64,000 bases of DNA from Glycomyces sp. GTDB taxonomy: Bacteria; Actinomycetota; Actinomycetes; Mycobacteriales; Micromonosporaceae. Shown here one piece after another: positions 47,534-63,788 of this stretch. The stretch spans positions 16,504-80,503 of the forward strand of contig DASTYG010000107.1 in the NCBI GenBank assembly GCA_035765105.1, written 5' to 3'. Below the pieces are notes generated by a model. The model was not told where the DNA came from, made no database searches, and saw only the letters and a list, made by a program, of their open reading frames with translations. Position 1 is the stretch's first letter. Every line of letters begins with the position of its first letter. The position numbers were made by a program, and so were the translations under genes.

Positions 47534-47536
47534 GCC

Positions 47537-47866: not shown

Positions 47867-47868
47867 AC

Positions 47869-48363
47869 GTGGTCATCAACCTGCCTCCCGAGCTGGGAGA
47901 GATCCTGAACATCCTCGGCTTCGACTGGCCCATGTCCAATGAAGACCAGCTCTTCGAGATGGGCCAGGAGTGGATGAACGTCGCCGGCAGGATCGACGAG
48001 CAGCTCCAAGAGGCCGCCCAGAGCGCCCAGCGGGCCTGGGCCGAGAACATGGGCGAGAGCATCGACGCCTTTCAGCAGTGGTGGGAGGCCGAGGACTCAC
48101 CCGCTCAAGCGTTGTCGAAAGCGGCGGTGGGCGCGAACCTCGGCGGGGCCGCGCTGATGATCTGCGCGGGCATCGTCCTGGCGTTGAAGATCGCCGTCAT
48201 CGTCCAACTGGTGCTCTTGGCGATACAGATCGCGGCGGCGATCGCCGCCGCCGCGGCCACGTTCGGCATCGCCAGTGCGGCGCTGCCGGGGATATACGCG
48301 CTCGGACGCAAGATCCTGGCGGAGATCCTTCAAGAGGTCGTCATGCAGCTGGCGTTGGGATAG
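47869..48363 (+). CDS. Polymorphic-toxin N-terminal delivery module (WXG100-like domain plus 2 TM helices), ended by an in-frame TAG
   Basis: GTG 47869. VVINLPPELGEILNILGFDWPMSNEDQLFEMGQEW is the N-terminal pattern of actinobacterial T7SS-associated toxins. It is followed by hydrophobic helices and ends at TAG 48361-48363, in the same frame as the next ORF. Confidence 0.65.
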   Translation: MVINLPPELGEILNILGFDWPMSNEDQLFEMGQEWMNVAGRIDEQLQEAAQSAQRAWAENMGESIDAFQQWWEAEDSPAQALSKAAVGANLGGAALMICAGIVLALKIAVIVQLVLLAIQIAAAIAAAAATFGIASAALPGIYALGRKILAEILQEVVMQLALG

Positions 48364-48372
48364 GGGGCCGTC

Positions 48373-49014
48373 ATGGGAGTCTCGAAACGCCGCACGAGCA
48401 AAGCCACCAAGAGGATCACCAGACCCACGATCAACCAGCTGCTCAAGGGCCGCAAACTCACGTACAAGCCCAAGGGGCACGTCGACCGGCCCCGCTTCAA
48501 GAAGGTCACCACAGACGGCTTCACCGATGTGCCCAAGCCCTACAAGAAGAACGGCAAGTGGGTCCTTCACGTCAAGCGCCACGACGGCTGGAACAAGAAG
48601 GACTACCGCGCCAAGGTCGACTCGATGAAGCAGGCCGGCAAGGCCGGGAAGCTCAAGTACGTCAAGAACACGAAGGCGAAGCGCACGGGCGCCCAGGGCC
48701 AGAAGCGCGATCTCGAAGAGCGGAAGGCGGTCGCGGAGGCCACCCGGATCGAGGACAGAGGCAAGCCGGACAGCGCGCAGAAGTGGCTCGACGAGCGGTT
48801 GCGGACCCTGGACGCCCAGGAGGCCGACCATGACATCGAACTGCAGATCGACGGCAAGGACGAACTGGCGAACCTGAAGATGATCGACGCGGCCACCAAC
48901 CACGGCATGGGCGGCCAGCTGCGAAATCAGATCCTCAAAGCGATCGATGGCGGCATGAAACCCGGTGATCTCATCGAGATCAAGGAAGTCCCCGGCCTGC
49001 TCTCCAACAAGTAA
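48373..49014 (+). CDS. Lys-rich protein with a C-terminal HNH/His-Me-finger-like nuclease toxin motif
   Basis: EADHDIELQIDGKDELANLKMIDAATNHGMG fits DH-x8-G-x5-NL-x7-N of HNH folds. The N-terminal half is very basic. It is in frame with the upstream ORF, 3 codons after its TAG. Confidence 0.6.
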   Translation: MGVSKRRTSKATKRITRPTINQLLKGRKLTYKPKGHVDRPRFKKVTTDGFTDVPKPYKKNGKWVLHVKRHDGWNKKDYRAKVDSMKQAGKAGKLKYVKNTKAKRTGAQGQKRDLEERKAVAEATRIEDRGKPDSAQKWLDERLRTLDAQEADHDIELQIDGKDELANLKMIDAATNHGMGGQLRNQILKAIDGGMKPGDLIEIKEVPGLLSNK

Positions 49015-49051
49015 CGTATTGGCGGTATCCGGCTTCCGCTGAAAGGAAACG

Positions 49052-49699
49052 ATGAACACCGACTTCGGGCGGATCAGGGCGAAGGTCGATTACCTCCTCG
49101 CCCGCGACGACGTCGCCCTGCCCCCCAACGTGAGGGCTGAATGGGACCCTGAAGGGCTCGGCGGTCCGCTCGCCGACCAGGGCCGCGAACCGGCCGATCG
49201 CCTGCTCGACGCCCTCGCCGACCGCCACCTGGGCCAGCTGGTCTTCTTCGGGGAGGACGACCGCTACGAGCGGCTCGTGGACGAGTCGGAGACGGCTTGG
49301 GACGGCGGGCACGACTGGGTCTGCATCGGCGAGTCCGAACTCGCCACCACCACGGCCCTCCTCCTCCACACCAGCACCGGGGCCGTGGTCCTGTACGACT
49401 CCGACGCATGGGACTGGGAACTGAAGGACAATTTCATCCTCGTCAAGGACTCCCTCACCGCATTCGTCGACGAGGTCGCTCTGGGCACCGACTACCGCCG
49501 CCTGTACTACCAGAACTGGGCGGAGCTGGCCGCTGTCATGGAATCGGACGACCTCGAGTTTCCGGGTGTCTACAGGGACCCTTGGTACCATCTGCTCCGA
49601 GAAATGCAAGCGGACCTCTTCGGCGGGCAGGCCGTCGCAGGGAGCAGGCGGCGGGAGCTCCTCCGCCGGATCGAGGAACACCACGAGGACTGGGACTGA
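49052..49699 (+). CDS. SUKH-superfamily (SMI1/KNR4-like) immunity protein candidate
   Basis: Acidic 215-aa protein directly after the toxin. The pattern ...LLLHTSTGAVVLYDSD...VKDSLTAFVDEVALG resembles SUKH C-terminal motifs. Confidence 0.55.
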   Translation: MNTDFGRIRAKVDYLLARDDVALPPNVRAEWDPEGLGGPLADQGREPADRLLDALADRHLGQLVFFGEDDRYERLVDESETAWDGGHDWVCIGESELATTTALLLHTSTGAVVLYDSDAWDWELKDNFILVKDSLTAFVDEVALGTDYRRLYYQNWAELAAVMESDDLEFPGVYRDPWYHLLREMQADLFGGQAVAGSRRRELLRRIEEHHEDWD

Positions 49700-49740
49700 T
49701 CCCCGTCCGCGGTCCCGACGAGAGCTGAATCGAGGTTCAC

Positions 49741-50271
49741 ATGCCGACCCGTGAGGAATACCTGCAACTGTGGGGCGATGACAACACCGTCGCCGTCCCC
49801 TTGGACGAGTGGAAGTCCGAGTACTCGGCCCCGGCCGAGACCTGGCCGGAGGTGGACCTGCTCCCCGTCGACATGTCGGTGGCCTTCACCTCCTACCTCG
49901 ACGGCCAGTACGAGCTGTTCGCCCAGTTCGAGGTCCGTTATGAGGAGGAGGGCGACTCCCAGACGTTCATCGTCCTCGGCAAGCTGCCCCACACGGAGAC
50001 CTCGTTCTTCGTGCTGGACCCGGACACCGGCGTCATCCACCTCATGGACCCCTCGGACATGACCCTCGAGGAGGTGAACGCCTCCTACGCGGTGTTCGTG
50101 CGGTTCCTCTACCGCTTCGCGCAGTTCGTGGAGGCGGACGAGGGCGAGGAGACCCGCCCCGCCCGGGCCGAGGTCCTGGAGAAGGAGCTGAAGGCCGTGG
50201 ACGCCAGTGCGTTCGCACAGCGCGACAACTGGTGGAGCATGGTCATCCTGCTGCTGAAGGACGAGCTCTAG
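49741..50271 (+). CDS. SUKH-4-like immunity protein
   Basis: FIVLGKLP...FFVLDPDTGVIHLMD...VNASYAVFVRFLYRF; shares the VN(A/S)SY..FV.FL..F motif with the next ORF. Confidence 0.6.
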   Translation: MPTREEYLQLWGDDNTVAVPLDEWKSEYSAPAETWPEVDLLPVDMSVAFTSYLDGQYELFAQFEVRYEEEGDSQTFIVLGKLPHTETSFFVLDPDTGVIHLMDPSDMTLEEVNASYAVFVRFLYRFAQFVEADEGEETRPARAEVLEKELKAVDASAFAQRDNWWSMVILLLKDEL

Positions 50272-50274
50272 CCG

Positions 50275-50805
50275 ATGGAGCTGTCAGACAAGACCGCGTT
50301 CGTGTGGACGCCCGAGGACCTCATGGAGATGCCGCGCCGGGGCCTGGTCGACCTCGGCGTGCCGAACGACAGGCTTCCCGACGAGGACTGGGTCCCCCGG
50401 CGTCTGGCGGGGCTCTACGACGCGGACGCGATCCCCGAGCCGCTCGGCCCCTTCTCCGTGTTCCAGTTGCAGGCGGGAGCGACGACGATCGACACCAAGT
50501 TGGTGCTGCTCGGCGTCGTCCCCGGTGCCCCCGACCTCATGTACGTCATCGACTCCTCGACCGCTGAGGTATTGCAGTTCGACCGGCGCTCCAATGGCGT
50601 CCGCGGCGTGAACTCCTCATACCGGTGGTTCGTCGAGTTCCTCTGGCAGTTCGAGGCCGCGAAGAAGCAGCACGGTACGGACCGCGTCGCCGATGTCCTC
50701 AATCCGGCCCTCAAAGCGACGCTGGGCGGCGTGGACCCCTTCGCCTTCCAACCGGAGCAGTGGTGGCCCGGCGTCTGGAGCGAACTGGGCCGATCCCCCG
50801 AGTGA
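50275..50805 (+). CDS. SUKH-4-like immunity protein (paralog of the previous ORF)
   Basis: LVLLGVVP...MYVIDSSTAEVLQFD...VNSSYRWFVEFLWQF; starts 3 nt after the previous stop. Confidence 0.6.
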   Translation: MELSDKTAFVWTPEDLMEMPRRGLVDLGVPNDRLPDEDWVPRRLAGLYDADAIPEPLGPFSVFQLQAGATTIDTKLVLLGVVPGAPDLMYVIDSSTAEVLQFDRRSNGVRGVNSSYRWFVEFLWQFEAAKKQHGTDRVADVLNPALKATLGGVDPFAFQPEQWWPGVWSELGRSPE

Positions 50806-52294: not shown

Positions 52295-53929
52295 TCAGCC
52301 CTCGAAGACGAGGTCGTACAGGGCGACGCCCTGCGCCGCCAGATACTCGGCCTCGGCGTCCGATCCGTCGTCGATGCTGGTCAGCGGGGTGACCCACGCG
52401 ACCACGTCGTCCTTGTACCAGGCCATCTCGAGGTGTCCCGAGGGCTCGATGACGGCGCCCTTCGTCCAGGGCCGCTCAGTGGACTCCCCGTAGGGAAGCG
52501 GCGCGGGGGCGACGCCGTCGCAGCCTTCGAGATGGCAGACGCTCAGCGAGCCCCCGGTCGCATCGTTGTTGCGCCCCACCGTGGCCAACAGCGAGGTCGG
52601 CATTCCCCGGTCGTCGGCCACCATGATGGAGCACGAGGCGAACTCGCTGTCGTTGTCCTCGCCCTCCTCGTAGTGGACCAGGGACGAGCCCGGACCGACG
52701 AGGTCCAGCATGCCCTGTACGTCGACCGCGCCGCAGACCTCGGCGGGAATCGCCGTCGACGCCTCCTCGGCCTCGTCGGCGTCTGCGGCCTCCTCGCCGG
52801 TATCGTCCGACGGCCCGTCGCCGCCATCGGCGATGACCGGGTCCTCACCGGAGCCGGTATCGTCGCCGCCCGAGGCGGCCATGATCCATATCGGAACGAT
52901 GACGGCCAGGGCCGCCACCGCGACGATCGCCGCGATCGCGACGTTCCGCAAACCGGTCCGGGCCGCCCGCGGCGGCGCCGGCACGGGGTGCTGGAACGCC
53001 AGCGTCGGACCGTTGTCCACCAGCGTGGGCTGCGGCGACACCGCCAGCAGGCCCCCGATCGCGGCCTCCTGGCCTCCCGCATGCGCCCGCACGGCCTCCG
53101 GCGGCGCCGGGTCCGCCTCCCCGCCCTCCTCCAGGAGCCGCCGCAGTTCCGGCGGCGAGGGCCGCTCCGCCGGGTCCTTGGCCAGGCAGCGCTCGATGAC
53201 CTCCCGCAGCGAGGCGGGCACGCCCTCCAGGTCCGGCGGCGTGTGCACGATCCGGTAGAGCACCTGCGGTATCGACGGGCCCTCGAACGGGGCCCGCCCC
53301 GAGGCCGCCGTGGCGAGCAGGCACCCCAGACTGAACACGTCGGACTGCTCCGTCAACTCCTTCGCCTCCGCCTGCTCGGGCGACATGTACCCCGGCGACC
53401 CGATCACCCCGCCGGTCCGCGTCAGGGCCGTGCTCGTCGAGTAGTCCACGGCCCGCGAGACCCCGAAGTCCAACAGCTGTGCCCCGGCCGCCGACAGCAG
53501 CACGTTCGAGGGCTTGACGTCGCGGTGGATCAGTCCAGCACTGTGGACGTCGCCCAGCGCCGAGGCGAGGTCCATGCCGATGCTCCGCACGTACGCCTCC
53601 GGGAGCGGGCCGCTCGCCTCCACCGCCTCGACCAGCGTGGGACCGGGCACGAACGCCGTCGCCGACCACGGCTCGCCGGAGGCGGCGTCGGCGTCCACCA
53701 CCCGCACGGTGTGCGCCCCGGCGACCTTCCGCGCAGCCGCCACCTCCAGGGCGAAGCGCTGCCGGAAACCGGGATCGCCCGCCAAATGGGGGAGGATGCG
53801 CTTGACCGCCACGCGCCGCCCGTCGGGCCCGACGGCGAGATACACGCGGCCCATGCCGCCCTCGCCGAGCAGCGCGAGGACGCGGTAGCGCCCGACGAGA
53901 CACGGATCGTTCGGACCCAGAGGCAGCAT
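52295..53929 (-). CDS. Hanks-type Ser/Thr protein kinase with a TM helix and an extracellular sensor domain
   Basis: Motifs GEGGMGRVY, VAVKR, HRDVKPSNVLL, DFG and SPEQ, then a TM helix (VAIAAIVAVAALAVIVPIWIM) and a ~190-aa Cys-containing ectodomain. Confidence 0.9.
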   Translation of the reverse strand: MLPLGPNDPCLVGRYRVLALLGEGGMGRVYLAVGPDGRRVAVKRILPHLAGDPGFRQRFALEVAAARKVAGAHTVRVVDADAASGEPWSATAFVPGPTLVEAVEASGPLPEAYVRSIGMDLASALGDVHSAGLIHRDVKPSNVLLSAAGAQLLDFGVSRAVDYSTSTALTRTGGVIGSPGYMSPEQAEAKELTEQSDVFSLGCLLATAASGRAPFEGPSIPQVLYRIVHTPPDLEGVPASLREVIERCLAKDPAERPSPPELRRLLEEGGEADPAPPEAVRAHAGGQEAAIGGLLAVSPQPTLVDNGPTLAFQHPVPAPPRAARTGLRNVAIAAIVAVAALAVIVPIWIMAASGGDDTGSGEDPVIADGGDGPSDDTGEEAADADEAEEASTAIPAEVCGAVDVQGMLDLVGPGSSLVHYEEGEDNDSEFASCSIMVADDRGMPTSLLATVGRNNDATGGSLSVCHLEGCDGVAPAPLPYGESTERPWTKGAVIEPSGHLEMAWYKDDVVAWVTPLTSIDDGSDAEAEYLAAQGVALYDLVFEG

Positions 53930-54168
53930 GGAAGGCTCCTTCGCTTGCGGGACGGCGGCACCCGCGGCGCACCGCGCCGCAGGCCCCTACGGTGGCCCCG
54001 CCGATCCCGGGCCGGTCCCCGATCCGTCCCGCGCCCGCCGCGGCGACCGTGACCGCGCCGTTGCCTCAGGTAGCGGGCCGATCGTCGCGCCACCGGCGTT
54101 GATAATCTCGTACCGCGCCGTTGGGGGAGACGAACCGCTCACGAACACCGCTACCCGGGAGGCCCTTC

Positions 54169-57100
54169 ATGTCCGTCGAGCAGACCACCGACCGCGTCGG
54201 CGTCCCCTCGGTCGGCGACCGGGTGGAGGTCCGCGACTCCCGCTGGATCGTCGCCGACGTCGACGCCTCCGGTACCGACACCGTCGTGGAGCTGGGCAGC
54301 CTCGCCGACGACGCGTTCGGCGAGACCCTCCGCCTCGTCTGGGAACTCGAACCGGGCCGCCGTCTCCTGCCCGCCTCGGGCCTGCCCGAGGTCCGCCAGG
54401 GCGCCTTCGACAAGCCCGGCCAGCTCGCCGCCTTCCTCGACGCCATGCGCTGGTCCGCGCTCACCAGCGCCGACACCCGCTCCCTCCAGGCGCCCTTCCG
54501 CTCTGGCGCCGACATCAAGCTCTACCAGCTCGAACCGGTGTGGCGCTCCCTCTCCGCCCCCAGGGTCAACCAGCTGCTGGCCGATGACGTAGGTCTGGGG
54601 AAGACCGTCGAAGCCGGGCTCGTGGCCAGCGAGCTGATCCTGCGCCACCGCGCCGAACGGGTCATGATCGTCTGTCCCGCCGGGCTCACCACCAAATGGC
54701 AGAGCGAGATGTTCGATCTGTTCGGCCTGCGCTTCACCATCGTCAACGCCCAGACCTACACCGATCTGCGCCGCGAGCGCGGCAACGGCGCCAACCCCTT
54801 CGAGGTCTACCGGCACACCATCGTCTCGCTCCCGTGGCTGCGCGGCCCCAAGGCCGAGCGGCTCCTGTTCGGCGAGCTCCTGCGCGGCGCCGAAGACGCG
54901 GCGCGCCCGTTCTTCGATCTGCTCATCCTCGACGAGGCCCACCACATCGCCCCCGCCGCCCCGAAGCAGCGCTACGCGGTGGACTCCCAGCAGACCCGGA
55001 CCATGCGCGCCCTGGCCCGCCATTTCACGCACCGCCTGTTCCTGTCGGCCACCCCGCACAACGGCTACCCCGAGTCGTTCACCGCGCTGTTGGAGATCCT
55101 CGACCCGGCCCGCTTTGCCCGCGGCGTGCCGCCCTCCCCTGCGGCGCAGGAGGAAGTGGTCATCCGGCGGCTCAAGTCCTCGATCATCGGCTCCGACGGC
55201 CGCCCTGAGTTCCCCCGCCGCGTCGTCCGCGATCTGCCGCTCGACTACTCGGACGGCGAGCTCGCCGTGCACCGCCTGTTCAGCGAGTTCACCGAGGCCC
55301 GCCGCACCAGGCGCGCCAAGGGCAGAAGAGGCCGCGCCGCCGCCGACCTCGTGACGCTCCTGCTGAAGAAGCGCCTGCTGTCGAGCCCGCAGGCGTTCGC
55401 CAACACCTACGCCGCCTACGCCGGGGCCCGCCCCGCCTCGCCCGCGGCCGCCAGCGACGCCGTCCCCGGCTTCTTCGACGACTTCCTCGACGAGACCGCC
55501 GTCCTCGACGACGAGGAGCTCTACGAGTACGAAGAGGACGGCCTGCGCCGCTCGGCCGGCTACGAGGAGCGCCTCGACCCCGCCGAGCACGCCCTGCTCG
55601 CCCAGGTCGACGACTGGGCGCGGCAGCACCTGGCCGTCCCCGACACCAAGGCCGCCGCCCTCCTCGGATTCCTCACCGCCACGTGCAAGGCGGGCGGCAA
55701 GTGGGGACCGGACCGCGTGGTGGTCTTCACCGAGTACCGCGACACCCTCCACTGGCTCCACGAGCTCCTGGCCTCCCAGGGCTTCGGCGGCGACCGCGTG
55801 GCGCTCCTCCACGGCGGCATGGACGTCGATGACCGCGAGCAGATCCGCCTGGCCTTCCAGGCCGACCCGTCCGAGCACCCCCTGCGCGTCCTCCTCGCCA
55901 CCGACGCCGCGGGGGAGGGCATCGACCTCCAGAACCACTGCCACCGCCTCGTGAATTACGACATCCCGTTCAACCCCAACAAGCTCGAGCAGCGCGCCGG
56001 GCGCATCGACCGCTACGGCCAGCGCCACAGCCCCGAGATCTACAACTTCATTCCGGCCGACACCGCCCAGAACTCGGCCTTCAAGGGCGAGATCGAGTTC
56101 CTCGCCCGCGTGGCCGTCAAAGTGAGCCAGATGCACTCCGACCTCGGCTCGGTCAACCCCGTGCTCGCCGACGCGCTCCAGAAGCGCCTCACCGGCGACG
56201 CCTCCGTGGCCGATGTGGACGCCCTCGCCGACCGGGCCGCCGCCCGCGGCCGTAAGGCCGGGGACGTCAAGGCCGCCGCGAACGTCTCCGAACAGGTCGA
56301 ACGCCTCGGCGAGACCTACGACAACAGCGTGGCCGAACTCCACCTCTACCCCGAGCGCATCCGCCGCGTCGTGGACACCGCGCTGGACCTGGCCCACCAG
56401 ATGCCCCTCAAGCCCTCGGCCACCGGTCCCGCAGAGTTCGAGGTCCCGGTGATGACCGGCGAATGGGTCCGCACCACCGAGGGCCTGGTCACGCCGTTCG
56501 TTCCCGAAGGGGAGGAGCCGCGTCAGCGGCCGGTCACCTTCGACCCGCTCGTGGCGCAGGGCCGCGACGACGTGGTCCTGGCGCACCTCTCGCACCCGCT
56601 GGTGGACATGTCCGCGCGGCTCCTGAGGGCCGCCGCCGACTCCGACCGCGTGGACCTCCACCGCGTCACCGCAGTGGTCGGCCCCGACACCCTCGAAGAC
56701 GTGTTCGTCGCCGCCTACGCGAAGTACACGCTCACCGGCGCCGACTCGACCCGCCTGCACCAGGAGATCATGGCCGTGGGCGGCTGGCTCGACTCCCGCA
56801 CCGGCCGCTTCCGCCGCCTGGAGAACCTCACCCGCACCGCCGAGATCCTCGACGCCGCACTGGATCAGGGCAGGGAAGCCGGGCCGGGAGCCCGGCTCCG
56901 CCTCGCCGAACGCTGGACCGAGGCCGACCGGGGCCTGCGGGCCGCCCTCGAATGGCGCACCGCCGCCCGCAGCGAATCCCTCGAACGCCTGCTGGAACGC
57001 CGCGTCGCCGAGGAGCAGGACCGCATCCGCAGCGACTACGAGCAGTTCCGCGCCTCCCTCGAAGAGGCCGTCAGGGGCCGCAAGGCCGCCGAGGACGAAC

Positions 57101-57291
57101 TGGCCGGACTCGCCGAACTCGAACTCCAGCAGGCCCGCCGCGACGAGGGCCACTGGAACGAGCGCCTGGAGCAGATCGACGCCGAACGCGACCGCGAACT
57201 GGCCGCGGCCGCCGCCCGCTACGCAGGCCCCGAGGGGCACCGCACCCCACTCGCGATCGTCTGCGTCGTACCGGAAAGGGACAACCGTTGA
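54169..57291 (+). CDS. SNF2-family (SF2) helicase/ATPase, DrmD-like, with a long C-terminal extension
   Basis: GGGAGG RBS before ATG 54169. Motifs LLADDVGLGKT (I), LILDEAHH (II), LSATPHNG (III), TDAAGEGIDLQ (V) and QRAGRIDRYGQ (VI). About 400 aa of helical/coiled-coil tail follow motif VI. Confidence 0.9.
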   Translation: MSVEQTTDRVGVPSVGDRVEVRDSRWIVADVDASGTDTVVELGSLADDAFGETLRLVWELEPGRRLLPASGLPEVRQGAFDKPGQLAAFLDAMRWSALTSADTRSLQAPFRSGADIKLYQLEPVWRSLSAPRVNQLLADDVGLGKTVEAGLVASELILRHRAERVMIVCPAGLTTKWQSEMFDLFGLRFTIVNAQTYTDLRRERGNGANPFEVYRHTIVSLPWLRGPKAERLLFGELLRGAEDAARPFFDLLILDEAHHIAPAAPKQRYAVDSQQTRTMRALARHFTHRLFLSATPHNGYPESFTALLEILDPARFARGVPPSPAAQEEVVIRRLKSSIIGSDGRPEFPRRVVRDLPLDYSDGELAVHRLFSEFTEARRTRRAKGRRGRAAADLVTLLLKKRLLSSPQAFANTYAAYAGARPASPAAASDAVPGFFDDFLDETAVLDDEELYEYEEDGLRRSAGYEERLDPAEHALLAQVDDWARQHLAVPDTKAAALLGFLTATCKAGGKWGPDRVVVFTEYRDTLHWLHELLASQGFGGDRVALLHGGMDVDDREQIRLAFQADPSEHPLRVLLATDAAGEGIDLQNHCHRLVNYDIPFNPNKLEQRAGRIDRYGQRHSPEIYNFIPADTAQNSAFKGEIEFLARVAVKVSQMHSDLGSVNPVLADALQKRLTGDASVADVDALADRAAARGRKAGDVKAAANVSEQVERLGETYDNSVAELHLYPERIRRVVDTALDLAHQMPLKPSATGPAEFEVPVMTGEWVRTTEGLVTPFVPEGEEPRQRPVTFDPLVAQGRDDVVLAHLSHPLVDMSARLLRAAADSDRVDLHRVTAVVGPDTLEDVFVAAYAKYTLTGADSTRLHQEIMAVGGWLDSRTGRFRRLENLTRTAEILDAALDQGREAGPGARLRLAERWTEADRGLRAALEWRTAARSESLERLLERRVAEEQDRIRSDYEQFRASLEEAVRGRKAAEDELAGLAELELQQARRDEGHWNERLEQIDAERDRELAAAAARYAGPEGHRTPLAIVCVVPERDNR

Positions 57292-60200
57292 GCCGCCTCG
57301 CCCGCAACCCCCGCCACCGCGCCTCCAAGCCCGCCCGCACCGGAGCGGACCGCACCCGCGGACACCAGGACTGGATCGAGCTCATCGAGACCGACGGGCC
57401 GTGGCTGTCCCTCCCGGTGCTCACCGCCGCCTGGCCCGATCTCGACGCCGTCCCCGTCGAGCGGCGCCGGGCTCTGCGCGCCGCCCACGCCGAATGGATC
57501 GAGCGCCTGGACGCGGGGCGCCCCGGAGCCGAGAGCCCCGACGCGAACGCCCCTGGCTCCGGGGAGGGGGCCGACATCCCGGACGACGAGCGGCGCTCCC
57601 GGGCCTGGATCGAAAACCTCCTGGCGGACTTCCTGGACTGGACGCCTGTTCATCACCTTCGGTTCCCCGAAGGCGATGAACAATCGATCGACGGCATCGC
57701 TCCGGTCCACATCGGCCAGCACGATACGACCGTCGCCCCGAGCTTCGTCCTCCACGACGGCGACGAGCCGCGCGTCATCGGCCTGATCGTCCCGCCCGGC
57801 AACCACCCCGCCAAGCGCATGAGGGGCGAGACCTGGACCGCCAGCCCCATCGACCGGCTCCTGCGGCTGTGCACGGCCAACAAGACTGAACTGGGCATCG
57901 CCACCGACGGCCGCTTCCTCGCCCTCGTCTACGCCCCCGCAGGCGGGGCCGGGAACGGCGGTGCGAGCGCGTACGGCGTCTTCGACACCATGACCATCGC
58001 CGACGCCTCCGACCTGGTGGTCCTGCGCGCCCTGTTCAGCCTCCTGAACCGCCGCCGCTTCACCGACTACCCTCCTGAGCAGCAGCTCCCCGCGCTCTTC
58101 GCCCAGTCCGCCGAGAAGGAGGAGGAGCTCACCGAGACCCTCGGCGTCCAGGTCCGCCGCGCCGTCGAACTCTTGGTGGAGGCCATCGGCCGCGCCCACA
58201 AGGCCAAGAAGGCCCGCGACGGCCTCGGCATCACCACCGAGGCGAGCGACGGCACGCGGCAGCTCGTGGAGGCCGACGAGGTCTACCGGGGCGCGGTCAC
58301 GGTCATGATGCGCCTGGTCTTCCTCCTCTTCGCCGAGGAACGCCGCCTCCTGCCCACCGACAACCCGCTCTATGCCGAGTCCTACTCCGTGGCCGAGGCC
58401 GCCAAGCGCCTCCAGGCCCTCGCCGACGAGGACAGCGAGGCGCACCTGGAGCAGAGCCACCGGACGTGGCTGCGGCTGCTGGCCCTGTTCAACGCCGTCT
58501 ACCGTGGCGTGGACACCGCGGAACTGTCCATCCCGGCCTACGGCGGCTCCCTGTTCGACCCGGGCGCGTACCCGTGGCTCTCGGACGAGCGGACGCCGCT
58601 GGCCATCGACGACCGGACCGTCTACAACGTCCTCAAATCCATCACCACGGTGTGGATGAGCGCTGGTAGGCAGCGGACCCCGAAGTCTCTCAACGGCATC
58701 CAGTTGGCCGATCCCAAGCGCAGGCCGAGGGGCGAGTTCCGCACGCTCAACTTCGACCGGCTCGGAGTCGAGCAGATCGGCTACGTGTATGAAGGTCTGC
58801 TGGCCTGGGAGGGGCGCTGGTCGGACGAGGTCATCGTGGGGCTCATCGGCACGCAGAGCAAGGAGGCCGAGGTCCCGCTGCGGGAACTGGAGGAGATGCG
58901 CGAGTGGGCCGGAGGCGATGTGAAGGCCCTGGCCGCAGCGCTGCACCAGCGGTTCGAGAAGGACGAGAAGACCGGCATCGGCACGGCGAAGGCGATCGCC
59001 GACGCGCTGGCCGAACTCGACGCCGAGCAGCGGGAACGCGCCGAGCGGGACCTGTTGGCGGTCACCGGCAATGACCCGAAGCTGACCGAGAAGCTGCTGC
59101 CGTTTTACGGGATCATCAGGGCCGACCTGCGGGGACAGGCGACGGTGGTATTGCCCGAGACGCTGTACATGACCGAGTCGGCGCTGCGCGGGAACACCGG
59201 CGCGCACTACACGCCGAGGAAGCTCGCGGATGAAGTGGTCAAGGGCGCGCTTGAACCGTTGGTGTACGAACCGGGGCCGTTGCAGACGGCCGACGAGGAC
59301 GCGTGGCGGCTCAAGGGCAGTGAGGCGATCCTCGGGCTGAAGGTCGCCGACATCGCGATGGGCTCGGCGGCGTTCCTGGTGGCGGCGTGCCGTTTCCTGG
59401 CCGACAGGTTGTTGGAGGCATGGAAGGCCGAAGACGACCCGAGGGGAGCGGTCGCCGATACGGACGAGGAAGACGGCAACGCCGAGGACCCGAACCTGAT
59501 CGAGGCCCGCAGGCTCGTGATCGAGCATTGCCTGTACGGGGCCGACATCAACCCGGCTGCGGTCGAGATGGCCCGGTTGTCGCTGTGGCTGGTGTCCATG
59601 GACAAGGGACGACCGTTCACCTTCCTCGATGACCGGCTGGTGTGCGGAGACAGCCTGCTCGGGATTACCAGTGTTGAGCAACTGGAGTACATGCACCTGG
59701 ACCCGGCCGAGGGCCGGAAGCTGCATGAGGGAACGATCCTCGACTTCACGGCTCACGTGCGGGAACTGGTGGCGGAAGCCGCCGAGACCCGCAAGGCCAT
59801 CAACGAGATCGGCGATAAGAGCGCAGCTGACCAGGAGATGAAGCGCGAGCTGCTGGAGCGAGCGCGGGAACTGACCGAAGAGGCCGGGCGGTATGGGGAC
59901 CTGTTGGTGGGCGCTGGGCTCGCAGGAAACGCGAATGCTTGGCTGGTAGCAGCGGATCTCGGCAATGACCAGAGCGAGGAGGGACGGGAGAAGCTCGATA
60001 GGCAGGCGGCCCAATGGCTCAGGACTGACCAGCCTGCGGGGGCATTCGACCGAGAGCCAATCCACTGGCGGTTGGTCTTTCCGGAGGTCTTCGAGGTTGG
60101 GGGTTTTAACGCGATCGTCGGAAACCCGCCGTTCCTTGGTGGCAAGAAAATTAGTGGTAGTAGCGGTTCCGCTTATCGTGAGTTTCTAGTTGACTACCTT

Positions 60201-61583
60201 GGGCACAGTAAAAAAGGCAATGCTGATCTCGTTGCATACTTTCTGCTCCAAGCTGAAGAGTTGCTGGCTTATAGCGGACAACTTGGCATAATTGCAACGA
60301 ACACTCTGGCGCAAGGTGATACTCGTGAAGTAGGACTTGATCAAGTTGTAGCCGCAGGAGTTGAAATCCGCTCGGCGGTTAAGAGCGAGCGATGGCCATC
60401 GAAGAGTGCAGTCTTGGAGTATTGCGCTGTATGGACTTCAAAGGCTATTTTGGCGGAAAAGGCAGAGCGCTATCTTAATTCTGAACCAGTGGTGCAAGGT
60501 ATTAGCTCTTCTCTCGATCTACTATCTCGGGCTCAGGGCAACGCCCGGAAATTGGTAGCCAATGAAAAACAGGCGTTTCAAGGGTCGATCATCCTTGGAA
60601 ACGGATTCGCTATCGAACCCCAGCGGGCGCAGGAGTTGATTCAAAAAAATCAGCGTAATTCTGAAGTGCTTTCTCCGTACGTGAATGGACAAGATCTCAA
60701 CCAACGGGCCGATGGCTCGGCGAGTCGATGGGTTATAAATTTCCGCGATTGGGATGAAGAACAAGCTCGCTCGTATCATGAATGCTATAAGCATGTGGTG
60801 CAGCAGGTTAAGCCTGAACGCTTGGCTAAAAAAGATAAGGCGATTTCGAGCTTTCCTTGGTGGCAGTATTGGCGAGGGCGTAAGCAGCTATATGATTCAA
60901 TCTCAGGATTGAATCGGGTGATTGTGATTGCCCTGGTTAGTAAGGTAGTCATGCCTGTCATGGTGTCGGCAAGGCAGATCTTCTCTAATACGGTCGGGAC
61001 ATTCGTCTCTGATGATCATGCCCTCATGGCATATCTCTCGAGTGCTTTGCACTATTGGTGGGCGATTCAGCGGGGCTCAACCATGAAGGGAGACCTTCGG
61101 TATACGCCAACGGATGTGTTTGAGACACTTCCTCGTCCTGAGCTTTCCGAAGAGCTCCGTGGGCTAGGGTCACGACTGGATTCTGAGCGGCGGGAGCTGA
61201 TGCTTGCTCGTCAAGCCGGGCTCACTGACACCTACAACATGGTTCATGATCCGGCCAACTCTGATGCGGACATCGTGAACCTTCGGGAGATTCACCGGCT
61301 CATCGACATTGAGGTGTGTCGTTGCTATGGCTGGGATGACCTGATTCCCGAGCTGGCTCACGATCACTATGACACCCGCCAGGGCATGCGTTACACGATC
61401 GCTCCTGGTCCGCGCCAGGAGATCCTTGACCGGCTGCTCGAAGAGAACCAGCGTCGTTACGCCATCGAGGTCGAGCAAGGGCTTCACTCCAAGAAGAAGG
61501 CTGCCAAGAAGGCAACCCGCAAGGCGGCCAAGGCAAAGCCCGCGATGCCCGGTCAGGATTCGCTGTTCCCAACCGATGAGTAA
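57288..61583 (+). CDS. Very large gamma-class N6-adenine DNA methyltransferase of the Eco57I/MmeI/PglX/DrmMI type with a C-terminal putative target-recognition region
   Basis: Motifs YGGSLFDP, EQIGYVYEGLL, HYTPRKLADEVV, ADIAMGSAAFLVAA (SAM), GADINPAAVEMARLSLWL and GNPPFLGG (NPPF at 60123-60134). The start is uncertain: TTG 57288 (after GAAAGGGA, overlapping the helicase TGA) is the first plausible start. The track ATG at 56463 would overlap the helicase by 828 nt. Confidence 0.85.
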   Translation: MSRLARNPRHRASKPARTGADRTRGHQDWIELIETDGPWLSLPVLTAAWPDLDAVPVERRRALRAAHAEWIERLDAGRPGAESPDANAPGSGEGADIPDDERRSRAWIENLLADFLDWTPVHHLRFPEGDEQSIDGIAPVHIGQHDTTVAPSFVLHDGDEPRVIGLIVPPGNHPAKRMRGETWTASPIDRLLRLCTANKTELGIATDGRFLALVYAPAGGAGNGGASAYGVFDTMTIADASDLVVLRALFSLLNRRRFTDYPPEQQLPALFAQSAEKEEELTETLGVQVRRAVELLVEAIGRAHKAKKARDGLGITTEASDGTRQLVEADEVYRGAVTVMMRLVFLLFAEERRLLPTDNPLYAESYSVAEAAKRLQALADEDSEAHLEQSHRTWLRLLALFNAVYRGVDTAELSIPAYGGSLFDPGAYPWLSDERTPLAIDDRTVYNVLKSITTVWMSAGRQRTPKSLNGIQLADPKRRPRGEFRTLNFDRLGVEQIGYVYEGLLAWEGRWSDEVIVGLIGTQSKEAEVPLRELEEMREWAGGDVKALAAALHQRFEKDEKTGIGTAKAIADALAELDAEQRERAERDLLAVTGNDPKLTEKLLPFYGIIRADLRGQATVVLPETLYMTESALRGNTGAHYTPRKLADEVVKGALEPLVYEPGPLQTADEDAWRLKGSEAILGLKVADIAMGSAAFLVAACRFLADRLLEAWKAEDDPRGAVADTDEEDGNAEDPNLIEARRLVIEHCLYGADINPAAVEMARLSLWLVSMDKGRPFTFLDDRLVCGDSLLGITSVEQLEYMHLDPAEGRKLHEGTILDFTAHVRELVAEAAETRKAINEIGDKSAADQEMKRELLERARELTEEAGRYGDLLVGAGLAGNANAWLVAADLGNDQSEEGREKLDRQAAQWLRTDQPAGAFDREPIHWRLVFPEVFEVGGFNAIVGNPPFLGGKKISGSSGSAYREFLVDYLGHSKKGNADLVAYFLLQAEELLAYSGQLGIIATNTLAQGDTREVGLDQVVAAGVEIRSAVKSERWPSKSAVLEYCAVWTSKAILAEKAERYLNSEPVVQGISSSLDLLSRAQGNARKLVANEKQAFQGSIILGNGFAIEPQRAQELIQKNQRNSEVLSPYVNGQDLNQRADGSASRWVINFRDWDEEQARSYHECYKHVVQQVKPERLAKKDKAISSFPWWQYWRGRKQLYDSISGLNRVIVIALVSKVVMPVMVSARQIFSNTVGTFVSDDHALMAYLSSALHYWWAIQRGSTMKGDLRYTPTDVFETLPRPELSEELRGLGSRLDSERRELMLARQAGLTDTYNMVHDPANSDADIVNLREIHRLIDIEVCRCYGWDDLIPELAHDHYDTRQGMRYTIAPGPRQEILDRLLEENQRRYAIEVEQGLHSKKKAAKKATRKAAKAKPAMPGQDSLFPTDE

Positions 61584-61723: not shown

Positions 61724-62545
61724 ATGAGCGCGAAGGCATTCCTCACCATCATCCAAATCGCACGGCTCCTCGTCCAGTACCGCAAGCGGGCCAAGCTGAC
61801 CCACAAGGCGGTCGCTGACAAGGTGCAGATGAGCACCTCGAAGATTCGCGATCTTGAACACGCTCGGTCTCCGCAAGTCAAGTGGGCAGACATGCTCGCG
61901 TTCGCCCGCGTCTACGGGCTCGATCCCGATGAGACCGAGAACCTCGTTCGGCTCGCCGAGGCCTCCGAGACCCCGGACCTCTTCCACTCCTTCAAGATCC
62001 CTTCGGTGTTCTTCACCTTCCTCCAGATGGAGCTGACCGCCTCCAAGATCATGATCTGCGAGTCCGAGCTGATCACCGGCCTGTTCCAGACCGAGGCGTA
62101 CATGGACGCCATCACGGACGACGATGCGCCCGACAGGAAGGGACCGGCAGGGGCCGCTGGGTTCCGGCTCGACCGACAGACCAACTTCATGGAGCGGGAC
62201 TGGCTGCCCGAGGTCGTCTACCTGACTTCGGAGGCAGCCCTGCGCCACCAGATCGGGGGACCGGAGGTGATGGCCGAGCAGCTGGAACACCTCAAGGAAC
62301 TTGACCGAGATTTCTCGCTGTTCAATTTCCTGGTGGTGCCTTACGCTGCGGGGACGTACCACTCGCTTGGGAGCTCGTACGAGATCTTCGAGTTCGAGGG
62401 CGGGGAGTTCCCCAAGACGGTCTACCTAGAATCGTTTGAAGGGGCTCGTTACCTGGAGGTACCGGAGACGATCGCCTCGTTCCAGAACGCCTTCGATGAG
62501 TCTGTCAAGAAGGCCATACCGATTAAGGATTTCCAACTGTTATGA
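61724..62545 (+). CDS. XRE-family HTH regulator with DUF5753 domain (WhiJ/AbaA-paralog, Scr1-type)
   Basis: HTH LRKRAKLTHKAVADKVQMSTSKIRDLEH followed by a DUF5753-like region (FLQMELTASKI..., ...VYLESFEGARYLE). The final Leu is a TTA codon overlapping the next gene's ATG. Confidence 0.8.
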   Translation: MSAKAFLTIIQIARLLVQYRKRAKLTHKAVADKVQMSTSKIRDLEHARSPQVKWADMLAFARVYGLDPDETENLVRLAEASETPDLFHSFKIPSVFFTFLQMELTASKIMICESELITGLFQTEAYMDAITDDDAPDRKGPAGAAGFRLDRQTNFMERDWLPEVVYLTSEAALRHQIGGPEVMAEQLEHLKELDRDFSLFNFLVVPYAAGTYHSLGSSYEIFEFEGGEFPKTVYLESFEGARYLEVPETIASFQNAFDESVKKAIPIKDFQLL

Positions 62546-62948: not shown

Positions 62949-63788
62949 GTGGCACGGCATCTTCTGAAGCTGGACAGACTGAGCCTGCGGCCGTACGGTA
63001 CCGATGTGTCAATCGATGACTTCGCTTCGGCGATCAGCGCCGCCGTGAATCAGACCGATCAGCTCGCCGCCGCCATCGGCTTGGCAAAATCGGCGGGCGA
63101 TGACCTCAGTGGCCGGTTCGCGGGGCTCGGCGCCGATGGGAAGGCCGGTCAAGTCACCGCGGTGACGCAACGGCTCGAAGCCGAGGCCGCCGTTCAAGCC
63201 GCCCAACTGCAATCGACGCTGGAAGCACTTCGCGCCCAGGCCGAGGCTTTGCGAGGCAGCGGTTTACAAGGCGCACCGGGGAGTACCTCCGGCGCTCGCC
63301 CGGCTTCGCCGCCGCTGTCCAAGACAAGGCCATCACTGCCCCCTGACCAGAGCCGCGCCCCCGGCGGATCGCCGACGTTCATATCACCGGGGTCCTCCGG
63401 TGAGGGCCAGGAGAACCACCAAGCCGAGAACGATGCCGCGGTGGTGCTGGCACGTCATGGATATCCCGTTGAGCAAAACCCTCCGACCCGGACGAACGGA
63501 AAGAACCCCGATTATCGGATCGAAGGCAACTATTGGGACTGCTACGCGATCCGCACGGACAACATCGAGCAAGTTCGCAAAGCGATCAGGAGAAAAGTCA
63601 AACCCAAGGACGGCAACGTGCAAGCCGAGCGCATCGTCTTGAGCTTCGATGCCAGCGCCCCAGGAGGGCCGTCCACTATCACTCCGGAAGAGATCGAATC
63701 GCTGTTGCAGCGCAAGCCCGTGACCGGACTCAAAGAGGTTAAGGTGGTCAAGGACGGTCGAGTCCATGACCTGGAGCTGGGAGGCTGA
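62949..63788 (+). CDS. Toxin candidate: helical N-terminal region, Pro/Ser linker, and C-terminal small PD-(D/E)xK-like nuclease domain (CdiA-CT tRNase-like)
   Basis: The C-terminus AENDAAVVLARHGYPVEQNP...GKNPDYRIEGNYWDCYAIRT...RKAIRRKV...ERIVLSF carries an E...PD...D...K order. The GTG start is uncertain (GTG 63006 is an alternative). Confidence 0.55.
   Translation: MARHLLKLDRLSLRPYGTDVSIDDFASAISAAVNQTDQLAAAIGLAKSAGDDLSGRFAGLGADGKAGQVTAVTQRLEAEAAVQAAQLQSTLEALRAQAEALRGSGLQGAPGSTSGARPASPPLSKTRPSLPPDQSRAPGGSPTFISPGSSGEGQENHQAENDAAVVLARHGYPVEQNPPTRTNGKNPDYRIEGNYWDCYAIRTDNIEQVRKAIRRKVKPKDGNVQAERIVLSFDASAPGGPSTITPEEIESLLQRKPVTGLKEVKVVKDGRVHDLELGG

What the first reader, a model, noticed from the sequence alone, without database searches (positions are those of the whole stretch)
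58650..61583. Stepwise GC collapse inside the methyltransferase ORF: the presumed specificity region is a low-GC graft
Seen (hand counts of 60-nt lines within one continuous ORF): 80% GC at 57421, 63% at 59101, then 42% at 60181 and 43% at 60781. Roughly 43-53% persists from about 60100 to about 61130, and the value recovers only to about 53-60% up to the stop. The sharpest drop coincides with the catalytic NPPF motif (60123-60134), and the sequence after it is the putative TRD. The reading frame stays intact through more than 1 kb of AT-rich codons (AAA, AAT, ATT, TTG, GTT) that are otherwise rare in this genome. Inference: there was recent recombinational replacement of the C-terminal half, including the target-recognition part, with DNA from a much lower-GC donor. 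That is specificity switching by domain swap, as known for Type I HsdS and MmeI-family enzymes, but here it crosses a large compositional gap. The rare codons might also throttle expression.
Basis: seen in the sequence. Interest (0 to 1): 0.7.

Follow-up and report, generated by a model that had tools for sequence, protein, structure and literature searches.

The report
AT-rich swap-prone specificity module in DrmMI
The GC collapse is real, but it marks the swappable DNA-recognition module of a DISARM anti-phage methyltransferase, and the same AT-rich dip occurs in this gene in every host examined, from GC-rich actinobacteria to AT-rich cyanobacteria, so it is not a recent graft from a low-GC donor.

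Summary
Inside one intact ORF (57288-61583, 1431 aa), third-codon-position GC falls from 0.91 (codons 151-850) to 0.47 (951-1280) and recovers to 0.71 in the tail.

The gene is DrmMI, the N6-adenine methyltransferase of a class 1 DISARM defence system. It is translationally coupled to the SNF2 helicase DrmD, and the source is a Glycomyces MAG.

- **Right:** the low-GC zone coincides with a recombining module (motif IV to the end of the MmeI-type TRD, codons ~941-1276). Genomes whose backbones are 95-100% identical carry modules only 53-73% identical. Synonymous sites there are saturated, transversions at least equal transitions, and there are indels.
- **Wrong:** it is not a private, recent graft from a low-GC phylum. 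The same dip occurs in 81 of 82 family members and in all 8 Glycomyces genomes. It also occurs in DrmMI of Nocardioides, Microvirga, Deinococcus and five cyanobacterial plasmids, where it drops below an already AT-rich backbone.
- The module's nearest relatives are still actinobacterial DrmMI (55-65% identity). The last ~155 residues are backbone-like.

The cause of the host-relative AT enrichment is inferred, not shown.

The parts
54121..57291 (+). drmD, the SNF2-like helicase of class 1 DISARM (1056 aa). Its stop overlaps the DrmMI start.
   Evidence: NCBIfam NF038317 DISARM_DrmD scores 1252 bits against a cut-off of 610. PADLOC DrmD scores 1271 bits. Pfam finds SNF2-rel_dom and Helicase_C. 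GC3 is 0.93. The GTTGA overlap is shown.
57288..61583 (+). drmMI, the DISARM class 1 N6-adenine DNA methyltransferase (1431 aa, TTG start).
   Evidence: PADLOC DrmMI PDLC02643 scores 1585 bits over residues 21-1417. Pfam finds Eco57I, MmeI_Mtase and MmeI_TRD. It is 100% identical to a Glycomyces sp. MAG protein. The start was chosen from GC3 frame onset and an RBS-like GGAAAGGGA.
57288..59912 (+). DrmMI backbone (codons 1-875), with host-like composition. It includes methyltransferase motif I at about residues 688-697.
   Evidence: GC3 is 0.88-0.98. Amino-acid identity to other Glycomyces is 80-88%.
59913..60107 (+). Upstream shoulder of the valley (codons ~876-940), with intermediate GC3 and intermediate divergence.
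   Evidence: GC3 is 0.6-0.77. In the near-identical pair L020/L030, nucleotide divergence is 8-20% here, against 0.2% upstream.
60123..60134 (+). Catalytic motif IV, NPPF (residues 946-949). It lies in a conserved block at the 5' edge of the exchanged module.
   Evidence: The translation is shown. G945 to G952 are invariant in 20 relatives. The L020/L030 jump to about 40% divergence starts at codon ~941.
60108..61115 (+). Exchangeable specificity module (codons ~941-1276): methyltransferase motifs IV-VIII plus the TRD. This is the floor of the GC3 valley.
   Evidence: GC3 is 0.30-0.57. Pairs with 95-100% identical backbones are 53-73% identical here. Identity at four-fold sites is 0.27-0.37, which is about chance level.
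60384..61097 (+). Hypervariable TRD core (codons 1033-1270).
   Evidence: Pfam MmeI_TRD covers residues 1104-1286. Identity within Glycomyces is 0.55, against 0.52 to other actinobacterial genera, so there is no phylogenetic signal. Divergence among 34 close-backbone pairs peaks here.
61116..61580 (+). Conserved C-terminal tail (codons 1277-1431). It is backbone-like in phylogeny and its GC3 recovers only partly.
   Evidence: Identity to G. arizonensis is 88-91%. GC3 is 0.57-0.77. Only T3 is elevated (0.24), while A3 stays at 0.05.
61724..62545 (+). HTH_31/DUF5753 regulator-like gene immediately 3' of drmMI. It is syntenic in G. arizonensis.
   Evidence: Pfam hits are. GC3 is 0.81. The same gene is found at L005 10328-11149.

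Best explanation
The ORF is DrmMI, the self-marking N6-adenine methyltransferase of a class 1 DISARM anti-phage system. It is co-transcribed and translationally coupled with the helicase DrmD.

Its DNA-recognition module runs from methyltransferase motif IV through the MmeI-type TRD (codons ~941-1276). This module is an anciently polymorphic unit that is replaced as a whole by homologous recombination. The crossovers fall in conserved flanks: the NPPF block on the 5' side and the conserved tail from about codon 1277 on the 3' side. Replacement changes the methylated and restricted motif (shown for the mosaic structure; inferred for the motif change).

The GC collapse is the compositional footprint of that module. 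In every host examined, the module's synonymous sites are more AT-rich than the rest of the same gene. The dip is deepest in very GC-rich hosts such as Glycomyces.

The most likely cause is inferred, not shown. Module alleles are old, mutually unalignable lineages under diversifying (frequency-dependent) selection. They would therefore escape the weak GC-favouring forces that keep the backbone GC-rich, namely codon or GC selection weakened by linkage interference, and GC-biased repair of heteroduplexes. They would then drift towards the universal AT-biased mutational equilibrium.

The query carries one allele from the actinobacterial pool, the most AT-shifted of the eight Glycomyces genes compared. 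It is not DNA grafted from a low-GC organism.
For: **Identity of the system.** Relatives carry DrmA and DrmB directly downstream, and G. endophyticus has DrmA about 2 kb downstream. Cyanobacterial and Deinococcus loci are annotated drmD, drmA and drmC.

**Module replacement.**
- L020/L030 differ at 8 of about 2500 nt up to codon 850. They are then about 40% divergent over codons 941-1276, with transversions at least equal to transitions and with indels. Divergence is 7-13% after that.
- L003/L004 are 96% identical in the backbone, 53% in the core and 91% in the tail. L001/L006 are 94%, 54% and 90%.
- Identity at four-fold sites is 0.85-0.86 in codons 151-500 but 0.27 in the core for the same two pairs.
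- Core identity within Glycomyces (0.55) is about the same as to other genera (0.52), while backbone identity is 0.82 against 0.55.

**The valley is family-wide and relative to the host.**
- It is present in 81 of 82 members, with a median GC3 drop of 0.19 (Wilcoxon p = 4e-15).
- Cyanobacterial plasmids: N-part GC3 0.38-0.56, valley 0.26-0.33. Microvirga: 0.78 to 0.57. Deinococcus: 0.81 to 0.69. Nocardioides: 0.83 to 0.70.
- Across 42 bins of 30 residues, divergence among 34 close-backbone pairs correlates with low GC3 (Spearman rho = -0.76, p = 5e-9).

**No low-GC donor was found**.
Against: The cause of the AT enrichment is not demonstrated. No polarised substitution spectrum could be computed, because outgroups are saturated.

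Valley depth varies widely, from 0 to 0.46, and is consistent within a clade (all Glycomyces are deep; L020/L030 are shallow). A simple universal drift model does not predict this by itself.

Lassalle et al. 2015 (PMC4450053) link evidence of recombination with higher GC. The argument here therefore needs the extra assumption that whole-module replacement produces no heteroduplex inside the module.

K/(K+R) is 0.49 in the query's module, against 0.29 for Glycomyces as a group. This query allele may therefore have a somewhat more AT-rich history than its congeners.

DrmA, DrmB and DrmC were not found in the window. The motif specificity of any allele is unknown.
Confidence: 0.7

Rival explanations
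1. The C-terminal half of this particular gene was recently replaced by DNA from a much lower-GC donor, possibly another phylum, and has not yet ameliorated.
For: There is a sharp local GC3 step near NPPF, and the query has the deepest valley among Glycomyces (GC3 0.47; K/(K+R) 0.49). The module differs from that of the closest relative (63% identity against an 88% backbone). At least one swap therefore happened since the two diverged.
Against: The same valley occurs at the same codons in all 7 other Glycomyces genomes and in 81 of 82 family members. It also occurs, below the host level, in AT-rich cyanobacteria. The best matches to the segment are actinobacterial DrmMI, and nothing exceeds about 65% identity among 5.8 billion proteins, plasmids or phages. 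The tail (codons 1277-1431) is 88-91% identical to G. arizonensis.
Confidence: 0.07
2. AT-richness or rare codons in the module are themselves selected. Possible reasons are slowing translation for co-translational folding of the TRD, capping methyltransferase dosage, or providing an AT-rich platform for a xenogeneic silencer such as Lsr2 or an internal regulatory element.
For: The valley is conserved across phyla at the same position. 31% of codons in the query's module are rare for the host. Depth is consistent within a clade.
Against: Some members have no valley at all: L028 0.95/0.92, L036 0.80/0.81 and L082 0.94/0.91. Within codons 881-1300, GC3 does not track residue conservation (rho about 0). 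There is no TTA codon. Lsr2-type silencers are not shared by the cyanobacterial, Deinococcus and alphaproteobacterial hosts (own knowledge). The valley edges follow the recombination mosaic rather than a fixed structural boundary.
Confidence: 0.15
3. Targeted hypermutation of the TRD, by a deaminase-like or DGR-like process, generates both the diversity and the AT shift in situ.
For: Synonymous and non-synonymous sites both diverge locally. On the coding strand, C3 falls from 0.49 to 0.18 and T3 rises from 0.04 to 0.32, which is more than the G-to-A shift.
Against: In pairs with near-identical backbones, the module shows transversions at least equal to transitions, plus codon indels and block-like boundaries. 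The window has no template repeat and no inverted or direct repeat longer than 35 nt in 57-64 kb. No reverse-transcriptase or deaminase domain appeared among the Pfam hits to the neighbouring ORFs that were scanned.
Confidence: 0.03
4. Assembly artefact. The window comes from a metagenome-assembled genome, and the low-GC stretch is a chimeric join with another organism's contig.
For: The 100% match is to a 'MAG TPA: Glycomyces sp.' protein. GC stays somewhat low to the window end.
Against: Isolate genomes (G. arizonensis DSM 44726, G. algeriensis DSM 44727, G. endophyticus JCM 16001 and others) show the same profile. The ORF is intact. The tail and the downstream HTH gene are syntenic and 88-91% identical to G. 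arizonensis. The HTH gene has GC3 of 0.81.
Confidence: 0.02

Closest known systems
Class 1 DISARM DrmMI (for example Serratia sp. SCBI, which methylates ACACAG; bioRxiv 10.1101/2021.12.28.474362)
   Same: It has the same protein family and the same drmD-drmMI gene order. It is an N6-adenine gamma-class methyltransferase with an MmeI-like TRD.
   Different: In the 16 library papers that mention DrmMI, those I opened did not describe TRD-module polymorphism or a compositional valley. This was a text search, not an exhaustive one. In the window, DrmA, DrmB and DrmC are not seen, and a regulator-like gene follows drmMI.
MmeI-family Type IIL enzymes and BREX PglX, whose specificity is set by a C-terminal TRD and can be changed by TRD alteration (PDB 5HR4; PglX engineering, PMC11341690)
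   Same: Methyltransferase motifs IV-VIII plus the TRD are homologous to MmeI residues 468-903. The variable zone is the TRD.
   Different: No Pfam nuclease-domain family was reported in the 640-aa N-terminal region. PglX NCBIfam models score 44 and 29 bits against cut-offs of 500 and 900. It acts within DISARM, not as a stand-alone restriction-modification enzyme.
Type I HsdS TRD shuffling and allelic diversity at hsd loci
   Same: Specificity changes by replacing a recognition domain between conserved flanks. Alleles are ancient, and divergence forms a gradient in the flanks (own knowledge of the field, matched).
   Different: Here a single polypeptide carries both catalysis and recognition. 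The exchanged block includes catalytic motif IV onward. No local spare copies or recombinase are present.
Programmed inversions that rewrite DrmMI and other Type IIG-like genes (Nucleic Acids Res 2023, PMC9881135)
   Same: It has the same target gene family and the same functional outcome, an alternative C-terminal specificity part.
   Different: The window has no inverted repeats or silent partial copies in 57-64 kb. Stand-alone C-terminal DrmMI ORFs in Streptomyces and Streptosporangium proved to be remnants of decayed loci, not spare copies.
Low-GC hypervariable loci under diversifying selection, such as O-antigen or capsule clusters. Related framework: the bacterial gBGC / AT-biased mutation model (PMC4450053).
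   Same: Extreme allelic diversity coincides with AT enrichment relative to the host.
   Different: Here the effect is intragenic, is bounded by recombination breakpoints, and is seen in hosts spanning backbone GC3 of 0.38-0.97.

Membership tests
Class 1 DISARM | SNF2-like helicase DrmD | tested here: met
   NF038317 equivalog scores 1252 bits against a cut-off of 610, over residues 29-1053.
Class 1 DISARM | Adenine methyltransferase DrmMI adjacent to DrmD | tested here: met
   PADLOC PDLC02643 scores 1585 bits over the full length. The DrmD stop overlaps the DrmMI start.
Class 1 DISARM | Core genes DrmA (helicase), DrmB (DUF1998) and DrmC (PLD) | tested here: inconclusive
   There were no PADLOC hits among 9 large upstream ORFs. 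Only 2.4 kb lies downstream before the window ends. Relatives have DrmA and DrmB directly after DrmMI, or about 2 kb later in G. endophyticus. G. arizonensis shows none within 6 kb. The contig could not be retrieved.
MmeI-like gamma-class N6A methyltransferase with C-terminal TRD | Motif IV NPPF/NPPY plus the MmeI_Mtase and MmeI_TRD domains | tested here: met
   NPPF is at residues 946-949. PF20473 scores 50 bits and PF20466 scores 48 bits, both against a cut-off of 27. 5HR4 matches with E = 2.7e-5.
Type IIL (MmeI) restriction-modification enzyme | N-terminal PD-(D/E)xK endonuclease domain fused to the methyltransferase | tested here: not met
   Pfam reports no N-terminal nuclease family. The PDB sequence match covers only the methyltransferase and TRD. 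No fold-level test was run.
BREX PglX | Score above the NCBIfam PglX cut-off | tested here: not met
   NF033452 scores 44 bits against 500. NF033455 scores 29 bits against 900.
Recombinationally exchanged specificity module (HsdS-like allelic TRD swapping) | Near-identical flanks with an anciently diverged internal block, and phylogenetic incongruence between block and backbone | tested here: met
   For the query itself, the test is against G. arizonensis: 88% backbone, 63% core, 91% tail.
Recent xenologous graft from a low-GC donor | The low-GC segment is absent from close relatives, and the segment's nearest relatives lie in a low-GC lineage | tested here: not met
   The segment is low-GC in all relatives. 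Its nearest relatives are actinobacterial.
Programmed-inversion shufflon | Inverted repeats with a silent partial gene copy nearby | tested here: not met
   The longest inverted repeat in 57-64 kb is 26 nt at 77% complementarity, and it lies outside the gene.

The most novel reading that the evidence does not exclude
The host-relative AT valley may be a general signature of anciently balanced specificity modules. On this reading, synonymous sites inside the DrmMI module have escaped whatever force keeps bacterial genomes GC-rich, and they relax towards the AT-biased mutational equilibrium in every host. That would make this gene family a natural within-gene control for separating mutation bias from GC-favouring selection or biased gene conversion. 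Alternatively, AT-richness may be a selected property of the module.
Probability: 0.3. Interest if true: 0.55.

Novelty: new member of a known kind. Interest (0 to 1): 0.4.

Why it matters
For annotation, the locus is a Glycomyces class 1 DISARM drmD-drmMI pair, and its compositional anomaly should not be read as a foreign-phylum graft or a misassembly.

For defence-system biology, the comparison shows that DrmMI specificity modules are exchanged between otherwise near-identical genes across the family. DISARM self/non-self motifs therefore probably turn over as HsdS and MmeI/PglX specificities do. This defines natural breakpoints for engineering: the NPPF block and about codon 1277.

For genome evolution, an intragenic GC3 dip that tracks the swap zone is a compact test case. 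It appears in hosts with backbone GC3 from 0.38 to 0.97, and the cause of AT-richness in hypervariable and horizontally exchanged DNA remains debated.

Tried and rejected
1. **Low-GC donor search.** I queried residues ~921-1251 against 5.8 billion proteins, and residues ~931-1300 against plasmids and phages. The best hits were 60%, 47% and 34% identical. None was from a low-GC lineage with higher identity than the actinobacterial DrmMI. mostly listed fragments.
2. **Shufflon or spare copies.** The repeat search of 57-64 kb found nothing meaningful. Stand-alone C-terminal DrmMI ORFs on long contigs (P0199, P0131) were checked as possible silent copies. They are remnants of decayed DISARM loci.
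3. **Island boundary inside the gene.** Rejected. In relatives the 3' flank returns to host GC, and the downstream HTH gene has GC3 of 0.81.
4. **Accelerated amino-acid evolution alone.** Rejected. Four-fold sites are saturated only in the module.
5. **Deaminase-type hypermutation.** Rejected on the transition/transversion ratio and indels.
6. **bldA/TTA control.** There are no TTA codons.
7. **Amino-acid composition as the cause.** Rejected. Four-fold GC3 goes from 0.93 to 0.48.
8. **Retrieving the rest of the contig to look for DrmA/B/C.** This failed, because the protein is not on record.
9. **Technical issues.** One MAFFT run timed out. L007 was lost because of a frame problem. L011 was excluded from the large set because its longest ORF was a different gene.
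10. **Low-GC3 windows in other genes of the window.** These proved to be frame artefacts.

Full report
**Observation**

The 60-nt lines at 57421, 59101, 60181 and 60781 have GC of 0.80, 0.63, 0.42 and 0.43, and NPPF is encoded at 60123-60134. A 300-nt sliding profile shows about 0.70-0.78 up to 58.5 kb and 0.63-0.70 up to 60.0 kb. It then shows 0.48-0.53 for 60.0-61.2 kb and 0.56-0.59 to the stop.

The effect is synonymous. In the gene's frame, GC3 is 0.91 for codons 151-850, 0.47 for 951-1280 and 0.71 for 1301-1431. At four-fold sites alone the values are 0.93, 0.48 and 0.66.

In 100-codon windows of 44 other GC3-supported genes, mean GC3 is 0.94. The only comparably low values were frame artefacts at ORF 5' extensions. 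Rare codon types (under 2 per 1000 elsewhere in the window) make up 31% of codons 951-1300, against 2.4% of codons 1-850. There is no TTA codon.

The descent is graded rather than a single step. Single-step fits place it at codon 875 (nt 59913) and the recovery at codon 1299 (nt 61185).

**What the gene is**

The mechanical ORF starts at 56463, but its first ~275 codons are the wrong frame of the upstream gene. GC3 switches on at about 57300, and TTG 57288 with an RBS-like GGAAAGGGA gives a 1431-aa product.

- Pfam finds Eco57I, MmeI_Mtase and MmeI_TRD.
- PADLOC's DrmMI model scores 1585 bits over the whole length.
- The upstream + strand ORF 54121-57291 is DrmD (NCBIfam equivalog 1252 bits against a cut-off of 610). 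Its stop overlaps the DrmMI start (GTTGA).
- PglX models fail their cut-offs by a factor of ten or more.
- The protein is 100% identical to one from a Glycomyces sp. MAG, and full-length homologs of 1320-1430 aa are abundant in actinobacteria.
- The C-terminal part aligns with MmeI (5HR4) residues 468-903, that is methyltransferase motif IV onward, the TRD and the C-terminal helices.

No DrmA, DrmB or DrmC was found among nine large upstream ORFs tested. Downstream there are only an HTH_31/DUF5753 gene and a CdiA_C-like ORF before the window ends.

Relatives in Nonomuraea have DrmA and DrmB (PADLOC) directly after DrmMI; Kribbella and an Actinomycetales MAG have ORFs of matching size and position. 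G. endophyticus has DrmA about 2 kb downstream, after an intervening 306-aa ORF that was not identified (no PADLOC hit; Pfam not run). Whether the system is complete in the query is therefore open. The contig could not be fetched.

**Test of the graft hypothesis**

I fetched the homologous loci from 12 reference genomes and 80 metagenome contigs. I codon-aligned them to the query.

- All seven other Glycomyces genomes show the same GC3 drop at the same codons: 0.81-0.91 in the N part against 0.45-0.57 in the valley.
- An Actinomycetales MAG and Streptosporangium show it as well. It is weaker in Nonomuraea and Kribbella.
- In 82 non-redundant members the valley is lower than the N part in 81. 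The median difference is 0.19, it exceeds 0.3 in 17 members, and Wilcoxon p = 4e-15.
- The query's drop of 0.44 is the largest in its genus but not unique; L024 goes from 0.92 to 0.46.

A search with residues ~921-1251 alone against 5.8 billion proteins gave nothing above about 60% identity, and the named hits were mainly actinobacterial. G. arizonensis is 60-72% identical in this stretch. Searches with residues ~931-1300 gave plasmid hits led by Rhodococcus, Nocardia and Nocardioides (45-47%), with cyanobacteria at 42-43%. Phages gave one weak hit.

**The segment is nevertheless a recombining module**

Identity of the query to Glycomyces relatives is 80-95% over residues 151-930. It falls to about 50-70% over 931-1230 and returns to about 80-90% in the last ~100 residues (1331-1431).

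In the TRD core (1033-1270), identities are star-like:
- 0.55 on average within Glycomyces;
- 0.52 between Glycomyces and other actinobacterial genera;
- while backbone identities are 0.82 and 0.55 for the same comparisons.

Pairs with near-identical backbones have unrelated modules:

| Pair | Backbone (N) | Core | Tail |
|---|---|---|---|
| L020/L030 | 1.00 | 0.55 | 0.89 |
| L003/L004 | 0.96 | 0.53 | 0.91 |
| L001/L006 | 0.94 | 0.54 | 0.90 |
| L058/L068 | 0.98 | 0.61 | 0.90 |

Dozens more pairs behave the same way.

At the nucleotide level, L020 and L030 differ at 8 positions in the first ~2500 nt. Divergence then rises to 8-20% over codons 851-940 and to about 40% over 941-1276, with transversions at least equal to transitions and with codon indels. 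It falls back to 7-13% afterwards.

Third-position identity at four-fold sites of conserved residues is 0.85-0.86 in codons 151-500 for L003/L004 and L001/L006. In the core it is 0.27, about the chance level for that composition.

This pattern is recombinational replacement by anciently diverged alleles. It is not accelerated protein evolution, and it is not transition-type hypermutation.

For the query itself, the comparison with G. arizonensis gives 88% backbone, 63% core and 91% tail identity. Four-fold identity is 0.72 in the backbone, 0.32 in the core and 0.53 in the tail. At least one replacement has therefore occurred since the two diverged.

The 5' edge of the replaced block sits at the invariant GNPPFLGG block.

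**The valley is relative to the host, not to Glycomyces**

Class 1 DISARM loci on plasmids gave a decisive control. Cyanobacterial DrmMI genes sit in DNA of about 44-45% GC. Oscillatoria, Pseudanabaena, Nostoc N6, Trichormus and Calothrix were taken full-length; in Nostoc C057 only the IS4-split C-terminal part could be profiled.

- In the five full-length cyanobacterial genes, GC3 is 0.38-0.56 in the N part and 0.26-0.33 in the same module.
- Microvirga goes from 0.78 to 0.57.
- Deinococcus goes from 0.81 to 0.69.
- Nocardioides goes from 0.83 to 0.70.

A model in which the module pool simply has an intermediate composition predicts a flat or inverted profile in AT-rich hosts. That is not seen.

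Every sampled relative of the module lies inside a DrmMI gene whose backbone is GC-richer than the module. No sampled genome matches the module's composition while carrying a closer copy.

Across 42 bins of 30 residues, mean divergence among 34 close-backbone pairs and mean family GC3 are strongly anticorrelated (Spearman -0.76, p = 5e-9). The valley is therefore the swap zone.

**Mechanism**

Shown:
- the identity of DrmD and DrmMI;
- the mosaic structure;
- the ancient allelic modules;
- the family-wide, host-relative AT enrichment.

Inferred:
1. Module replacement changes the methylated motif. This is by analogy with MmeI and PglX, where the TRD sets specificity (PMC11341690), and with DrmMI's non-palindromic ACACAG site in Serratia (bioRxiv 10.1101/2021.12.28.474362).
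2. The AT enrichment arises because module alleles are too divergent to form heteroduplex with each other and are under diversifying selection. They would then be shielded from the weak GC-favouring forces acting on the backbone, and AT-biased mutation would dominate. Those forces are selection weakened by linkage interference, and GC-biased conversion as proposed by Lassalle et al. (PMC4450053).

Several observations fit this second inference. The shoulders are graded. The drop is larger in GC-richer hosts. The valley floor is about 0.26-0.33 in cyanobacteria.

Some observations weigh against a simple version. Depth is heterogeneous but consistent within a clade, and a few members have no valley.

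A functional role for AT-richness or rare codons cannot be excluded. It is disfavoured by those flat members and by the lack of any relation between GC3 and residue conservation inside the valley.

**Other checks**

- There are no inverted repeats or silent copies that would indicate the programmed inversions reported for DrmMI (PMC9881135).
- Stand-alone C-terminal DrmMI ORFs in Streptomyces and Streptosporangium are remnants of decayed loci.
- Misassembly is unlikely, because isolate genomes show the same profile and the tail and downstream gene are syntenic with G. arizonensis.

**Verdict**

The gene is an ordinary member of the DrmMI family. It is wrong in its specifics: the graft is not recent, not private to this genome, not from a low-GC phylum, and does not cover the whole C-terminal half.

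The residual point of interest is the cross-phylum, host-relative AT valley that coincides with the swap zone. In the 16 papers in the searchable library that mention DrmMI, those I opened did not describe it.

Noticed in passing
window 47105-50805 (+): This is a run of small + strand genes with GC of 0.64-0.66, caused by low GC2 while GC3 stays about 0.9. It includes a YbaB-like protein (47105-47533) and two tandem SUKH-4 immunity proteins (49729-50271 and 50272-50805). It looks like a polymorphic-toxin immunity cluster.
   Followed up: partly
window 62949-63788 (+): This ORF has a CdiA_C toxin domain (PF18451, 48 bits). It lacks the high-GC3 frame signal of native genes. It lies 1.4 kb downstream of drmMI in the lower-GC stretch that runs to the window end.
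   Followed up: no
window 61724-62545 (+); L005 10328-11149; L103 10713-11591; L104 11621-12514: An HTH_31/DUF5753 regulator-like gene sits next to the 3' end of drmMI in the query and in G. arizonensis. Together with DUF397 genes, it also sits beside decayed DrmMI C-terminal remnants in Streptomyces and Streptosporangium. This may be a recurrent association.
   Followed up: partly
window ~58650: GC skew flips from negative (-0.1 to -0.2) to positive (+0.12 to +0.23) inside drmMI, about 1.3 kb before the GC3 drop. It stays positive to about 61.2 kb. This is unexplained and may simply reflect amino-acid composition.
   Followed up: no
window 57288-57291: The drmD stop codon overlaps the drmMI TTG start (GTTGA), which implies translational coupling.
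   Followed up: yes
window 61116-61580 (codons 1277-1431): In the conserved tail, the GC3 deficit comes almost entirely from T3 (0.24), while A3 stays at 0.05. This is true in the query and in all Glycomyces. It is a strand-asymmetric C-to-T pattern, unlike the valley, where both A3 and T3 rise.
   Followed up: no
L020 and L030 (metagenome contigs ERZ777003 NODE-4403 and Ga0310826_100145): These two DrmMI genes are nearly identical in nucleotide sequence for the first ~2500 nt but carry unrelated specificity modules (55% amino-acid identity). This is the cleanest natural module swap in the data set.
   Followed up: yes
L096 2549-3916 (Nostoc sp. C057 plasmid): An IS4 transposase splits this DrmMI gene into an N-terminal ORF and a C-terminal ORF. 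L103 keeps only a 168-aa DrmD fragment and a 481-aa DrmMI C-terminal fragment upstream of DrmB and DrmC. DISARM methyltransferase genes therefore appear to be frequently disrupted.
   Followed up: no
window 52295-53986 (-): A Ser/Thr protein kinase (Pkinase, 133 bits) is transcribed divergently from drmD. It matches generic kinase models in PADLOC (PD-T4-6), so a defence role is not established.
   Followed up: no
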